From: Ylistrum balloti
Taxonomy: Eukaryota
Reading direction: 5' to 3'
DNA: 64,000 nt
NCBI RefSeq assembly: GCF_031769215.1
Contig: NW_026782145.1
Coordinates: 682,001 to 746,000 of the forward strand
Made by a program: the position numbers. Of this stretch, positions 12,001-36,000 are shown in pieces. Numbering within the stretch: position 1 is the stretch's first letter; every line of letters starts with the position of its first letter.

Positions 12001-15000
12001 ATTTTTACTCAGGATGAAATTATTATCATTGAAAGTAGTTGTCATTTTCAACAATACCTATTCAACTTTAGGACAATAATGAGATATCTTTGACAAAAAT
12101 CACCTTTTCACTTGCAGAAAAGAATGTTATTCATACACATGTAGAGTATTTACCTGTCAGAAAGGAAATCATGTTTTGTGTTTGACATTAACTTTAAGGC
12201 TAACAAACCTAACACAGGTATTTTCTATTGAAATATATAATCGGGTGAAAGTCAGCTTTACTGAAATAAATATCACAAGTTTTATCTATACAAGGTGAAG
12301 ATAAATTTTACTAACAAACCTATTAAAGGGTACTGATGATAAATTTATCATTTGTTTATTTAATCTTCTGAAAACTGTACTTACAGCACTCCAGTCTCCA
12401 CCCTCCCATTCAGAGCAGGCGTGGACATTACAGCGATCAATGGCATTAGGTTTGTGTCTGATCTCACACTGACTTTTAGCCACAGTTTCCCCACTGGCTT
12501 TATCTACACAGTAAATGGTTCTGGTCTGTATTCCGGCACCGCACATTCTTGAACACTGTCAACATGCAAGGTAATACAGATTACAGCAAACACAGATATC
12601 GGTCATGCAATGGGTGCAGAATAAAAGACACATGTATTAATAAATATAGTCACACATGTGACAAAAAGTTCAATAAGCAAGATCATCTGTCAATGCAGTG
12701 TTATGGTTTGGATGGCTTTAAAATGAAAGTTGTTGTTGATGGTTGACTCACCTCTGTCCAGTTGGCTGATCTCCACTCGTAGCCCAGACTATTGACCTTT
12801 GGTATAAGGCCAGGCTTTATCATTGGTGTTTTGGGTAGTGGGCGCACTCCAATGTTCTCCCCAACAATCCTGCCATGACCTGATCCTCTGATTGGTAGTC
12901 GAGGCATCATCCTCTTGTCCCCGGAGTTTGACCTAGGTCTGTTACCTCTCGGTATTGGTTCACTAGATATTTCCTCCAAATCTTTGTCTGGCAATCCTTT
13001 AATTCTTTCTTGATCTGGTATTGTTCCTCTGTCAGACAATGATGGTGGTAGACGACGTTCCTGTGTTGGTGTGTTTTCTTTTGGCTGTGGTATTTCCTGT
13101 CTTTCAGTCCCAGAGTCACCATCATTTTCAGGATTTGACCTACCTTGTGTTAAATGTTTATTGATTGGCTCAGACTCTAACCTTTCCTGAGGTACAGATT
13201 CATTGATAGGTTCAGTTTCTCTCCCAGGATTTTTTGTTTTAGACACTTTTATTGGCTGATCCTCTGATGTTTCAAGATCAGGTTGACTTTCATAACCATC
13301 TTCACCGTCATTAAAATCCTCCTCCTCTCCCTCTATTCCTCCTTCCATCACATTGTACAAGTCTCCAACTTCCTCTTGGTTGTCCTCTTTGTCTTCTACC
13401 CTGACCTCTCCTCCATTGTCACTATCAAAGTTAGAGGAACTGTCTATCTGTACATTCACATCACTTCCTGTTTTGACAGTCTCACTCTCAATAAGAGAAG
13501 GAACTCCTCCCACCTGGCGGGAAGGAACCACAGATTCACTTCCATCCTTGGGTATGACTAGAGAGTTTTCTCCCTTGGAATCAGATAATACAATGCTAGG
13601 TGATTCTTCATTCTTTACTCCAAGTGATAGATCTCTGGGAGTTGTTGGCACTCTAGCAGAGCTTGTGGTTGGGGCAGATGTTTCTGGGGCAGCAGTTGTG
13701 GTTGGAATAGTGGTAGTAGAAGCTGTGGTGGTCGTTGGCGCAGGTGTGGTACTGGTAGTTGTAGTGGTAGTTGGTACAGGTGTGGTTGTTGTAGTGGTTG
13801 TCGAAGTGGTTGTCGAAGTGGTTGTAACAGTGGTTGTGATTGGACAAGCTCTGTTGTTACAGAGCATGTTTCTGGATGGTTCCTCATCTATGTTACAGAC
13901 AGATCCCCCAATACATTGGACCTGTCTAGATTTCATCCCTCCTCCACAGGTACGAGTACACTACAACACAAAGGTATGAGTTCACTATAGTACATAGGTC
14001 AGAGTACAGTACAACATATGGGTCATAGCTTACTACAACAAAGGCCAGAATTCAATAAAAACAAAGAGGTAAGAGTTCTATACAACACAAAGGCCAGAGT
14101 TCTATACAATACAAAGTCCAGAATTATATACAACACAAAGAGGTCAGAGTTCTATACAACACAAAGAGGCCAGAGTTCTCTACAACACAAAGAGGTCAAA
14201 GTTATATACAACACAAAGAGGTCAGAGTTCTATACAACACAAAGAGGTCAGAGTTATATACAACACAAAGAGGTCAGATGTCTATACAATACAAAGTCCA
14301 GAGTTCTATACAATACAATGTCCAGAGTTTTATACAACACAAAGTCCAGAGTTATATACAACACAAAGAGGTCAGAGGTCTATACAATACAAAGTCCAGA
14401 GTTCTATACAATACAATGTCCAGAGTTTTATACAACACAAAGTCCAGAGTTATATACAACACAAAGAGGTCAGAGTTCTATACAATACAAAGTCCAGAGT
14501 TCTCTACAACACAAAGGCCAGAGTTATATACAACACAAAGAGGTCAGAGTTCTATACAATACAAAGTCCAGAGTTATATACAACACAAAGAACAGAAAAC
14601 ACCTATCTCAGAGCTGATTTCAATTCACATTTTATATATGTAAATAGAAAGTCATAAAAATTCTGACTTTACAGTGCTCCGTTACAAAAACAATATCTGT
14701 CCTGACTCTCAACTAGGCCACATTGTCTACAGGATATGACATTATCAGAAAACATTACAGCTGGAATAGGTCTAAGACAAGGATACTACTGCTACCAGGC
14801 ATAAAGTATCTTTAGAGATATTCACAAGATAAGACATTAATTCAGGACAAATGGACAAGATATAAGTTACATTATCTGTTTCTAAAAGCAATAAAATGGT
14901 AGGGACATAATAATTATTTAAGTTCAATATACAACAAAAGTAGTAAGCACTGTTTGGCATAAAGCAACTGTTTCTTTTCTTTACTTGAAACATTTAATCA

Positions 15001-33000: not shown

Positions 33001-36000
33001 ATGATCTGTTTGTAATCAATGACCATTGTCTGAGTGACAACAATGTTCGTTGGTCAGAGTGATATCAATGAGCATATGCCAGAATGATATCAAAGAGTGT
33101 TGGTCAGAGTGATACCATTGGTGTCCTACCTGTGGATCCTCAAGCAGCACCAGTCGAACCATCACAAGGTTGAGGGCGTTCCCAATAGAAGCTTCATGGA
33201 ATAGAGTCGCCACCTGTAAACAGTAATATGTACAAAACTTTCTGACTAGCTAAGAAAGATCAAACCAACAGGAAAACAGCTAATGTTGAAGGAATACGAC
33301 AACAGATCTCAAAGAAGGCCCACATTTTGGCTCTAGGTACATAAACCCTAACTGCACACTATTTAACAAATAATACCATTCATTTTTCCTTCTTTTTACA
33401 ACATTGGCTATTAAGTACAAACAGATCACAAAATTTATCTTGTCATAATTTGTAGGTCTATTGAAAAACACATTAAACAATGTTCCCTTATTTAGAAATA
33501 AAAACTGTTTAGGTATAAATACCAGTATCTCATAACCTATAATTTATAATCTGGTTTGATTTACAAATCATCAGATAAATGCAAATGTTGTTTCCATGGT
33601 AATTGTTGTAAAAGAAGAAACCTTCTCTCTTCATTATATTGGCAACATTCCATGGTAAGTAATTTGCCTAGGATTTATGTATTATATGCCTGAAAAGTTT
33701 TATATAGCATTCAAATTCATTAGAAAACATTAAATTAGCATCTGGTAATATTAATTGACAGGGGCACCTGTTGTAGCCCTCTTATATATATTAATCCAAT
33801 TCATCATTGTAAGTAATTCAATATCTCAAACATTCCTCATCTGTCTAAGTTAGATACTTAAGCTTCTACCATATCCATATAACATATTCCTCAAATTTAT
33901 AACTTAAGGATACATATTCATCGATCAGATAAAATATTCTGGAGACTAAAATTATCACAAAATATGAAAATATGGAAGACATTCTGAATAAAATTGATTT
34001 TTTTTTTTATCCAAGCTGAGTAAAATCTTGATTCACTCTGCCCAGATGCCTTCCTCCACATAATTCTAACATCAATTTTTATTTGAACCAGACTGTAATT
34101 AGCATATAACTTTAACAGGTGTATGTTACACCTGGACTTAATTGTATGTAACGAAAAAATAGGAAGCACACCTGGACATCAACAATCATAATATGGAGAA
34201 AGAAGAATTAAGAAATTCTAAGAGACAATAGTGTGTACTAATTATTACCTATTTGTGTTAAAGGTCTGTAGCTTTACGCCTCAACTAATATTTCAATGCA
34301 ATTTTCTTTAAATTCCTTGTCAGAGAGTGGATAAGAACAACAATTTCTTTAAGAGTTCTCACTACGTAATGCTGATGTATCTCGACTACATCTAAGAAGG
34401 AAAGGTTAGCAATATTTTTTCACATACAATGTCTATTTCCTTGCACATGCAATCTTAACTCATTTCACCTTTGCCTTTGTCTTAATATAACTGACAACAC
34501 AATTCTAGGCTTAGATTTGCTGACAAGAAGATAACAAGACATCTTTAGTGTACAGGTAAAACATTAAGCTAGTATGACTCACAGGTATCAAGCATTTCCT
34601 TTTTTTACACAGAGAAATCACAATGGAGTCTATCAACACAAGTAACAACAGGAGATCTGGTTTTATATGAAGCAACAACAAAAGAACTCTTTCCAAAATC
34701 TTTAAATAAAATTATAAGTTTAAATACAATCTGTCCCTGATTTCATTGTACAAGTAAAATGCATAAAAAAGTAATTTACTGCCGAATAAACACAGACCTG
34801 TTTATAATGTCACGCAATTCCTGTTGAAAGATACATTTTATTTTCCTGTGATGGGATAATTTGGCACAAATGCACCAAGACGCACTACTGAACTAAATCC
34901 AATTTGGTGTGGTGAATAGGGCACACGTATTACATCTTTGAGTGTTTACATTGCAAAAAAAAAAAAAAAATTGAGGTCAAGTTATGGCAGAATTCCAAAT
35001 AAAATTTCTTTTTAATTCTTTTTGGTATACATAAAATAAATATTGATCAAAAGACAATTACTCTTGTGTTGTATAACAGCTATGTGGATAAGAGAGAGCA
35101 ATAACTCAAACACACAGATACACTAACATACAGGTAAATAGGCATGGACTCATGTGATAGCTAGACAGGTCATTAAAACCCACAGGGACAAGCTAAGTAA
35201 CATGCACATGTCATGCACTTATAAATACTTTAATAATTTTTCAATTACTCTAATTAGGACTAGTTTACATAAATCAATTAGCATAATTTTTGTATCATTA
35301 GACCTTGTACAGATTTTAAATTGTCACATATCATTGCCTCCTTTTTAAATTATCATCATGAATTTCACTTCACTATGTCATTTCATTACAAGGTGAATAT
35401 TATAGCTGTAATTGAAATGACACGTATGTATTGTGACAAGTAGCAATCATGTGTAAACAAACCTGCTCTCGACTGATAGCATCATTGTTTTTAAAGTTTT
35501 AAATTACAGACAAGAAACAGGTAAGCTGTAAATTGTCTATTATTACCATAGGTAAAATTACCCAGAACTTGATATACATGGGCAATTCAATTCCTTAATG
35601 AGAGTAGATCTGTAATGTCGTGGTGCATATGCTCTGTCAAGTTGATTTAATAGCAGGGTCAAGTTTTGAAAGATCACAACACATAAGTTCTTCCTTTTAC
35701 AGCTCACATAGTATGGCATAATCTCTTTACATTCCGCTGTCTGCTTGAATTTTCAACAGAAACATCTTGTTTTGAAAATAAGAAATTGTTCATTTGAAGA
35801 CGAGAGAATTTATCTTATACACCATTTGGTTTTGGGGAAGATTATTTTTTCTGTATAAAAGTCTAAATCTTTCAATCATTGCTTCTGACAGTTATGGTTC
35901 TGAAGAAGAATTAAAAGCAAAGAGAGTTAAAGGATGTCTATCTCTTCCTTCTTACTTCTGATTTTTAGGAAACACTAGATTTCAAAAGAGTTTAGGTTTT

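What the first reader, a model, noticed from the sequence alone, without database searches (positions are those of the whole stretch)
13961..33130. Recurrent splice-junction-seeded tandem arrays across one gene
Seen: at least five ADAMTS introns carry tandem arrays whose unit resembles the adjacent splice junction and which start at or right beside it (acceptor at 13961; donors at 16238, 22108, 29440 and, more weakly, 15148). A sixth array decays right up to the donor at 33129. Each array has a different unit. Inference: local duplication or slippage preferentially starts or survives at exon-intron boundaries, generating decoy splice sites and exon-end copies. This could be a general route to intron growth, splice-site turnover or exon birth in this lineage. 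I do not know it as a described systematic pattern, but I cannot search the literature.
Basis: partly seen in the sequence, partly recalled or inferred. Interest (0 to 1): 0.68.

Follow-up and report, generated by a model that had tools for sequence, protein, structure and literature searches.

The report
Intron repeats copied from exon edges
In one scallop ADAMTS gene, several intronic tandem repeats began as local duplications spanning an exon-intron boundary, a kind of repeat already known from single human genes such as F7, here seen several times in one gene.

Summary
The window encodes, exon for exon, the Ylistrum balloti "ADAMTS 7-like" protein on the minus strand.

- **Four arrays copy exon sequence:** acceptor 13960 and donors 16238, 22108 and 29440. 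Their units contain 16 to about 55 nt of the adjacent exon plus the splice site.
- **A fifth array** (donor 15148) is a cluster of five AGGTCA motifs that starts with the donor itself.
- **A sixth array** (donor 33130) decays to within about 4-20 nt of the donor and shows no exon homology.

The copied exon ends encode residues conserved across bilaterians, so the exon is the source and the intron copies are derived.

This kind of array is known. Human F7, IFI6 (6-16), CBS, LMNB2 and PDGF carry minisatellites whose first monomer spans an exon-intron boundary (PMC1557585).

What is unusual is the recurrence in one gene. Five of 12-14 arrays of at least 100 nt touch a junction, against 0.5-1.3 expected under random placement (P about 0.0001-0.001). 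That test is post hoc, on one gene that was picked because it looked striking. A coverage-based null shows no excess.

A genome-wide junction bias is therefore neither shown nor excluded.

The parts
11138..54603 (-). Host gene: ADAMTS 7/12-like metalloprotease. Coding exons for residues 36-1638 of P0002 (24 exons, 23 complete GT-AG introns). The exon for residues 1-35 is not in the window.
   Evidence: exact match to P0002, unique junctions. (exon-by-exon Pfam: propeptide, reprolysin, ADAMTS_CR_2, spacer, TSP1). (exon 1 absent, acceptor at 54603).
13945..14584 (-). Array A: 25 units of 24 nt at the 3' end of intron 18. The last unit spans the acceptor (13961|13960) and covers the first 16 exon bases.
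   Evidence: Unit identity to consensus is 80-100% distally and falls to 79, 77 and 70% at the exon.
15044..15149 (-). Array F: irregular 14-nt units carrying AGGTCA. The authentic donor GAG|GTCAGT (last exon base 15148) is the first of five AGGTCA motifs.
   Evidence: 5 motifs in 78 nt, Poisson 4e-7. (5 copies of a 28-nt double unit, 15044-15140). (z=3.1). No decoy donor scores 5 or more.
16012..16256 (-). Array B: about 5 copies of a 49-nt unit (34-49 nt spacing) filling 222 of the 288 nt of intron 16. The first copy holds the last ~19 exon bases and the donor AAA|GTAAGT (last exon base 16238).
   Evidence: z=6.3; 41/54, 31/43, 23/30; 16212-16256, 78%; 2 decoys.
21782..22127 (-). Array C: about 8 degenerate copies (28-94 nt spacing) starting with the last ~20 exon bases and the donor AAG|GTAGGT (last exon base 22108).
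   Evidence: z=4.6; 37/48, 31/40 including exon part; 9 decoys of score 5 or more; AAG|GTAAGT at 21863 scores 12.1 against 11.6 for the real site.
29182..29494 (-). Array D: three copies of a 91-109-nt unit. Copy 1 is the last ~55 exon bases (the HELGH codons), the donor CAA|GTAAGA (last exon base 29440) and ~45 nt of intron. Two decayed copies follow.
   Evidence: z=8.6; 57/77, 47/59; 46 nt at 74%, 41 nt at 83% across the junction; decayed peptide LPPSLHVAHEFRLH; one decoy identical to the real donor at 29250.
32565..33109 (-). Array E: 50-nt unit, 7 copies at 98-100% (32565-32913), then 75-88% copies toward the donor CAG|GTAGGA (last exon base 33130). No exon homology detected.
   Evidence: (z=0.2).
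24851..27040 (-). Comparison: the largest interior arrays of intron 5 (37/52-nt and 59-nt units), 1598 nt from the nearest junction.
31306..32180 (-). Comparison: interior array of intron 3 (45-nt unit, 18.9 copies), 220 nt from the acceptor.

Best explanation
These are ordinary intronic minisatellites in a scallop genome rich in tandem repeats.

**Origin (shown).** Four arrays (A-D), and probably a fifth (F), were born when a local tandem duplication, by slippage or unequal exchange, covered an exon-intron boundary. This follows from the in-register exon copies.

**Why the array edge sits on the junction (inferred).** Selection keeps the exon and its own splice site intact. The extra copies can therefore only accumulate, expand and decay on the intron side. 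That pins one array edge exactly at the junction.

**Why the copies are tolerated (inferred by analogy with F7).** The exon-proximal site is the one used. The copied sites remain as silent pseudo-sites, most of them already degraded.

**What they do.** On this reading they lengthen the introns (shown) and do nothing else. Finding several in one gene reflects the high repeat load, about 21% of intronic bases, plus the fact that this gene was picked for looking striking. No junction-specific process is required.
For: - **Exon copies are real and in register**.
- **The exon is the source.** The copied ends encode HELGH, CNLHLCPAK and CTRTCG, conserved in 10 of 10 aligned proteins from scallops to a hemichordate, allowing for conservative changes.
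- **Local origin.** Among 22 arrays compared, the only outside hits were a 31-nt match for E and two just past 4666-5020; no unit is shared between distant arrays.
- **High repeat load.** 7,907 of 38,197 intronic positions lie in the 12 arrays of at least 100 nt. Tandem repeats make up 21.7% of the genome assembly of the scallop Amusium pleuronectes (passage in PMC10225492).
- **No excess by coverage.** Random intronic 30-mers have a near copy as often (12-16%, n=800 and 1486) as exon ends do (3 of 46 at z of 4.5 or more; 6 of 46 at z of 2.8 or more).
- **Decoys would be harmful if used.** Read-through from the B, C, D and F donors reaches an in-frame stop within 1-18 nt (array E, which has no decoy, runs 111 nt).
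- **Precedent.** Passages of PMC1557585 show that the F7 IVS7 minisatellite has its first monomer across the boundary and that only the most upstream donor is used. The same text lists four more human genes of this kind.
Against: - **Random placement underpredicts junction contact.** 5 of 12 arrays touch a junction against 1.24 expected (own intron) or 0.54 (any intron), with P(5 or more)=0.0007 and 0.0001. With the partial first intron it is 5 of 14, P=0.0009 and 0.00008. Without the short-intron array B it is 4 of 13, P=0.001. With smaller arrays it is 6 of 21, P=0.001 and 0.0001.
- **One-sided decay.** Arrays A and E are degenerate toward the junction but end sharply on the far side. Simple symmetric array turnover does not predict this.
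- **Shared motif.** Every cluster of AGGTCA in 64 kb lies in arrays F and C (sense strand) and A (antisense).
- **No RNA data** were available to show that the decoys are silent.
Confidence: 0.6

Rival explanations
1. There is a real junction bias. In this lineage, tandem arrays are seeded or survive preferentially at exon-intron boundaries. One possible cause is that deletions and array contractions reaching into the exon are removed by selection, which would protect junction-anchored copies. Another is that the boundary is a slippage hotspot. The gene would then be one example of a genome-wide rule that drives intron growth.
For: - Placement tests are nominally significant under every variant tried (P from 0.00008 to 0.008).
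- The six arrays lie in five different introns, each array with a different unit.
- Decay gradients in A and E point toward the junction.
- The split is 5 donor-side arrays against 1 acceptor-side array.
Against: - This is one gene, chosen because it looked this way, and the number of windows screened is unknown.
- The coverage null shows no excess.
- The flanks of the window hold no second gene to test.
- Five searches found no paper reporting such a bias.
- The donor/acceptor split is not significant (two-sided binomial about 0.22, my arithmetic).
- Array E shows no exon homology, so it may be near the junction by chance.
Confidence: 0.25
2. The arrays are selected cis-elements. They could be clusters of 5' splice-site-like or AGGTCA motifs that recruit U1 snRNP or another factor to strengthen or regulate the neighbouring splice site. 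Alternatively they could act as intronic nuclear-receptor half-site enhancers.
For: - AGGTCA clusters occur only in arrays F, C and A within the 64 kb.
- Array C holds 9 donor-like sites.
- A C. elegans intronic minisatellite is enriched next to alternative exons (passages of PMC4039745).
Against: - Donor-like sites are no commoner on the sense strand than the antisense strand inside arrays (7 against 9) and only slightly denser than outside (0.89 against 0.56 per kb).
- Arrays D, E and F hold at most one decoy.
- Every unit is different, and the copies decay with distance or age.
- The link to nuclear-receptor half-sites is recalled, not tested.
Confidence: 0.07
3. The similarity to the exon ends is coincidence. 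The arrays are transposon-borne or dispersed satellite arrays that happened to land near exons.
For: - Array E has no detectable exon homology.
- Exon homology in A (p=0.004) and F is short.
Against: - Arrays B, C and D carry 19 to about 55 nt of exon sequence in register, with 0-1 of 200 shuffles as good.
- Among the 22 arrays, the only outside hits were a 31-nt match for E and two just past 4666-5020. A 64-kb window is a weak test for dispersed families.
Confidence: 0.05
4. The arrays are an assembly artefact, that is, mis-assembled or collapsed repeats.
For: Arrays with 100% identical units, as in E, are the kind that assemblers mishandle.
Against: - The window has no N.
- The junction copies are diverged (70-85%), not identical.
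- The exons reproduce the deposited protein exactly.
Confidence: 0.03

Closest known systems
Human F7 intron 7 minisatellite (37-bp VNTR). Source: PMC1557585, abstract and passages read.
   Same: The first monomer spans the exon-intron boundary (4 exon bases plus 33 intron bases). The donor is therefore reiterated as pseudo-sites downstream, and only the most upstream site is used. Arrays B, C and D have the same anatomy.
   Different: F7 units are near-identical and vary in copy number (5-9). The scallop copies are diverged (about 65-85%) and carry far more exon sequence (19 to about 55 nt). Polymorphism and site usage could not be tested here.
Human 6-16 (IFI6), CBS intron 13, LMNB2 and PDGF intron 4 minisatellites, as listed in the introduction of PMC1557585. 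I read that passage only, not the primary papers.
   Same: These are minisatellites whose first monomer spans an exon-intron boundary. Units run from 12 to 100 bp, with up to 25 pseudo-donors.
   Different: Each is a single array per gene and all are on the donor side. Here four to six arrays occur in one gene, and one (A) sits on the acceptor side.
Intron gain by tandem duplication of an AGGT-containing exon segment. Sources: PMC3265369 and PMC4974935, search listing and abstract starts only.
   Same: A tandem duplication that includes splice-site sequence remodels a gene without changing the mRNA.
   Different: That model creates a new intron whose ends copy the flanking exons. None of the 23 introns here shows that signature (max z 2.2 and 3.2). 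The introns already existed and were only lengthened.
C. elegans CeRep25B intronic minisatellite next to alternative exons. Source: PMC4039745, passages read.
   Same: An intronic minisatellite positioned near splice decisions.
   Different: CeRep25B is one dispersed 24-nt family carrying known splicing-regulator motifs. The scallop arrays each have a private unit derived from the neighbouring exon edge.

Membership tests
Minisatellite whose first monomer spans an exon-intron boundary (F7 IVS7 type) | Head-to-tail repeated units inside the intron | tested here: met
   Tandem Repeats Finder rows for A, B and E. Tiling of A (25 units) and E (11 hits). The repeat finder families for B, C, D and F.
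Minisatellite whose first monomer spans an exon-intron boundary (F7 IVS7 type) | The exon-proximal unit contains exon-terminal bases and the authentic splice site, in register with the array | tested here: met
   - Met for A (16 nt of exon, 10/16 in register, p=0.004).
- Met for B (~19 nt), C (~20 nt) and D (~55 nt).
- F shares only the donor motif.
- E is not met (z=0.2).
Minisatellite whose first monomer spans an exon-intron boundary (F7 IVS7 type) | The splice-site sequence is reiterated as pseudo-sites in the intron | tested here: met
   - Decoy donors with PWM score of 5 or more: B 2, C 9, D 1, F 0, E 0.
- Array A has 12 in-register TTGTA..AG motifs.
- The feature is met for A-D only.
Minisatellite whose first monomer spans an exon-intron boundary (F7 IVS7 type) | Only the exon-proximal site is used in the transcript | not testable with these tools
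   No RNA data were available. The deposited protein model uses the proximal sites, but that is an annotation, not a measurement.
Minisatellite whose first monomer spans an exon-intron boundary (F7 IVS7 type) | Copy number varies between alleles (VNTR) | not testable with these tools
   Only one haplotype is in hand.
Intron created by tandem duplication of an AGGT-containing segment | The 5' part of the intron copies the downstream exon start, and the 3' part copies the upstream exon end | tested here: not met
   40-nt comparisons for 23 introns gave max z of 2.2 and 3.2. Neither maximum is in an array-bearing intron.
Dispersed satellite or transposon-borne array | The same unit occurs at several unlinked loci | tested here: not met
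   Of 22 arrays, 20 have no hit outside themselves. E has one 31-nt hit (E=7e-4). Array 4666-5020 hits only its immediate neighbour. The test is limited to 64 kb.
ADAMTS metalloprotease (host gene) | Propeptide, reprolysin catalytic domain with HELGH, cysteine-rich domain, spacer and TSP1 repeats | tested here: met
   Exon-by-exon Pfam gave matches for 7 of 10 exon translations. The exons are identical to P0002, which carries the full domain list. The joined model was not built or searched.

The most novel reading that the evidence does not exclude
In tandem-repeat-rich scallop genomes, exon-intron boundaries may be preferred birthplaces or refuges of minisatellites. Junction-spanning duplications would be protected on the exon side by selection and would grow away from the exon. 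Introns would then lengthen largely by copying their own ends, continually producing decoy splice sites. That would be a systematic route of intron growth and raw material for splice-site turnover, not an occasional curiosity.
Probability: 0.25. Interest if true: 0.6.

Novelty: new member of a known kind. Interest (0 to 1): 0.35.

Why it matters
Single minisatellites that begin on an exon-intron boundary have served as natural models for how the spliceosome picks one site among identical copies (F7). A gene with four to six such arrays, one of them on the acceptor side, is a compact natural test bed for that question in an invertebrate.

If the junction excess seen here held genome-wide, it would show that intron ends copy themselves. 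That would bear on how introns grow and how splice sites turn over in repeat-rich genomes.

As it stands, the finding is a well-documented example of a known phenomenon, plus an untested statistical hint.

Tried and rejected
1. **Weaker junction signals.** Acceptors 11582, 11985, 22619, 23252 and donor 18206 looked possible in the scan. Their alignments are short or purely intronic, so I dropped them.
2. **Apparent 97-nt exon overhang of array B.** The scan merged a single hit to the next TSP1 exon into the array. The true exon overlap is about 19 nt.
3. **General enrichment of donor-like motifs in arrays.** Not found: 7 sense against 9 antisense.
4. **Relic of intron gain by duplication.** Not found.
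5. **Dispersed or transposon origin.** No units are shared between distant arrays.
6. **A second gene in the window as an independent test.** Stop-to-stop frames of at least 75 aa in 1-11100 and 54000-64000 are repeat read-throughs or unconvincing. I did not search them further.
7. **RNA genes.** There are 0 Rfam matches and 0 tRNAs.
8. **Literature on a systematic junction bias.** Five searches found none. One search gave context only.
9. **Orthologous introns and genome-wide counts.** No eukaryotic genome collection is offered.
10. **Supplementary tables of PMC10225492** (repeat content by scallop species) are closed and unseen.
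Full report
**What the window is.** The window has no N. A search with one exon translation (window 16933-17208, minus strand) returned 37 proteins at E of 0.001 or better among 95 candidates. All that carry Pfam labels are ADAMTS-like. The best named hits are scallop proteins.

tblastn with the three scallop proteins placed 24 coding segments on the minus strand. P0002, annotated by NCBI as "ADAMTS 7-like [Ylistrum balloti]" and 1638 aa long, matches every segment residue for residue. 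The window is therefore this gene, or a near-identical copy of it.

Each of the 23 complete introns has exactly one GT-AG solution that reproduces the protein. Residues 1-35 are not encoded in the window, and exon 2 starts at 54603 after a cag acceptor.

Domain checks were made exon by exon: 7 of 10 exon translations match propeptide, reprolysin, ADAMTS_CR_2, spacer or TSP1 models.

**Checking the observation.** All six junction coordinates in the finding are exact. The last or first 30 exon bases were aligned to the adjacent 600 nt or less of intron and compared with 200 shuffles.

| Junction | z | Shuffles reaching the score |
|---|---|---|
| Donor 29440 | 8.6 | 0 of 200 |
| Donor 16238 | 6.3 | 0 of 200 |
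| Donor 22108 | 4.6 | 1 of 200 |
| Acceptor 11582 | 3.2 | 4 of 200 |
| Donor 15148 | 3.1 | 2 of 200 |
| Acceptor 13960 | 2.8 | 3 of 200 |
| Other 40 junctions | 1.6 or less | - |
| Acceptor 54603 | -1.6 | 199 of 200 |

The sixth, 11582, rests on a 10-nt match only.

**Anatomy of the arrays.**
- **Array D (donor 29440).** About 55 exon bases (the codons around HELGH), the donor and about 45 intron bases recur twice more, at 57/77 and 47/59 identity. The repeat finder gives 46 nt at 74% and 41 nt at 83% across the junction. The decayed peptide LPPSLHVAHEFRLH is visible in the frame list.
- **Array B (donor 16238).** The last ~19 exon bases plus the donor head about five copies of a 49-nt unit. 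These fill 222 of the 288 nt of the intron.
- **Array C (donor 22108).** There are about eight degenerate copies. The later ones include 20 exon bases, at 37/48 and 31/40 identity.
- **Array A (acceptor 13960).** Twenty-five 24-nt units tile without a break from 14584 to 13945. The last unit is 7 intron bases plus the first 16 exon bases. Ten of those 16 match the consensus in register, which 0.38% of 4449 exonic 16-mers achieve. Two of 45 other exon ends also reach 10. I did not identify which two; I suspect the paralogous TSP1 exon starts.
- **Array F (donor 15148).** The donor GAG|GTCAGT is the first of five AGGTCA motifs in 78 nt (Poisson 4e-7). Five copies of a 28-nt double unit are detected.
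- **Array E (donor 33130).** Seven copies at 98-100% are followed by copies at 75-88% up to 33109, or to about +4 to +10 of the intron in a probe alignment. There is no exon homology.

Tandem Repeats Finder sees A, B and E but not C, D or F. Every array has its own unit.

**Direction of copying.** The copied exon ends encode HELGH, CNLHLCPAK and CTRTCG. These are conserved in ten proteins ranging from scallops to Lingula, a nemertean and Saccoglossus. The exon sequence is therefore ancestral and the intron copies are derived. None of the 23 introns has the signature expected if the intron itself had been created by duplication.

**Is the junction contact more than chance?** Two nulls give different answers, and I report both.
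- **Coverage null.** Random intronic 30-mers have a near copy at z of 4.5 or more in 16.4% of 1486 uniform draws and 11.7% of 800 draws stratified by intron. Exon ends do so in 3 of 46 cases (6 of 46 at z of 2.8 or more, against 15-19%). By this measure exon ends are not unusually repeated.
- **Placement null.** A scan of the whole window gives 12 arrays of at least 100 nt in the complete introns, and 5 of them touch a junction.
  - Random placement in the array's own intron, allowing one unit of overhang, expects 1.24, with P(5 or more)=0.0007. Placement in any intron expects 0.54, with P=0.0001.
  - Adding the partial first intron gives 5 of 14, P=0.0009 and 0.00008.
  - Dropping B, whose 288-nt intron almost forces contact, gives 4 of 13, P=0.001.
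  - Adding seven smaller segments gives 6 of 21, P=0.001 and 0.0001.

It is nominally significant. It is also post hoc: the gene was flagged because it looks this way, and I could not test a second gene or another genome.

**How it most likely works.** A tandem duplication that spans a boundary leaves the mRNA unchanged as long as the exon-proximal site is used. The extra copy becomes intron. Selection on the exon then pins one edge of the array at the junction while copies multiply and decay on the intron side.

The decoys are consistent with silence:
- Read-through from the B, C, D and F donors reaches a stop within 1-18 nt (E, which has no decoy, reads 111 nt).
- B has 2 decoys, C has 9 and D has 1 with PWM score of 5 or more. 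These include one identical to the real site (D, 29250) and one stronger than it (C, 21863: 12.1 against 11.6).
- F and E have none.

For human F7, the passages I read in PMC1557585 show experimentally that the most upstream of several identical donors is chosen. That would explain tolerance on the donor side.

The arrays account for about 21% of intronic positions (7,907 of 38,197). This is close to the 21.7% tandem-repeat share reported for the genome of the scallop Amusium pleuronectes (passage in PMC10225492).

Shown here: the exon copies, their register, their direction, and the intron lengthening. Inferred: the duplication mechanism, the silence of the decoys and neutrality.

[quoted passage not shown] It names F7, 6-16, CBS, LAMIN B2 and PDGF. 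Arrays A-D meet the sequence criteria of that class. Usage and polymorphism could not be tested.

Three things differ from the human cases:
- Four to six arrays occur in one gene.
- One array is on the acceptor side.
- The exon share of the unit is longer (up to about 55 nt), and the copies are older and more diverged.

I found no paper describing a systematic junction preference.

**What remains unexplained.**
- Arrays A and E decay toward the junction but end sharply on the far side.
- All AGGTCA clusters in the window lie in arrays F, C and A.
- The placement excess itself.

These keep open, at about one chance in four, the reading that boundaries are preferred birthplaces or refuges of arrays in this lineage.

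**Verdict.** This is a new and unusually dense example of a known kind of repeat, carrying a testable but unproven hint of a junction bias.

Noticed in passing
window 15072-15149, 21979-22105 (minus strand) and 14141-14271 (plus strand): Clusters of AGGTCA (3 or more within 120 nt) occur in the 64 kb only inside arrays F, C and A. Several copies read TCAAGGTCA. From recall, not from any call, this resembles an extended nuclear-receptor half-site.
   Followed up: partly
window 21863: A decoy donor AAG|GTAAGT lies 245 nt into intron 8. It scores higher (12.1) than the authentic AAG|GTAGGT (11.6) on a PWM built from this gene's 23 donors.
   Followed up: partly
window 13686-13845 (within exon 12752-13960): This is a coding tandem repeat of Thr-rich 12-36-nt units inside the long exon (a mucin-like spacer). 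It gives a weak Pfam Mucin hit (E=0.0055, below cut-off). The region is only ~51% identical between scallop orthologues, while the neighbouring exons are 82-100% identical.
   Followed up: partly
window 54604-64000: The exon for residues 1-35 of the protein is not in the window, so the first intron is longer than 9.4 kb. It holds further arrays at 58506-59065, 59341-60135 and 63839-64000.
   Followed up: partly
window 24924-26764: The largest array of the gene switches between 37-nt and 52-nt periods (89-nt higher-order rows in Tandem Repeats Finder). The 52-nt unit is the 37-nt unit plus a 15-nt insert.
   Followed up: no
window 7326-8597, 1141-1796, 6512-6915: Large arrays lie downstream of the gene's stop codon (26 nt x 48.5, 22 nt x 30, 37 nt x 10.6). 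The 468-aa open frame at 7320-8726 is a read-through of the 26-nt repeat, not a gene.
   Followed up: no
window 13974-13985 and array A units: In array A the exon-derived part of each unit reads CTCTGACC, a branch-point-like CTGAC about 18 nt upstream of the unit's TATAG. The branch point of the authentic acceptor may therefore itself lie in an exon-derived copy. This is inference only.
   Followed up: no
window 27538-27556, 34955-34970, 45025-45042: Long homopolymer runs (G19, A16, T18) occur in introns.
   Followed up: no
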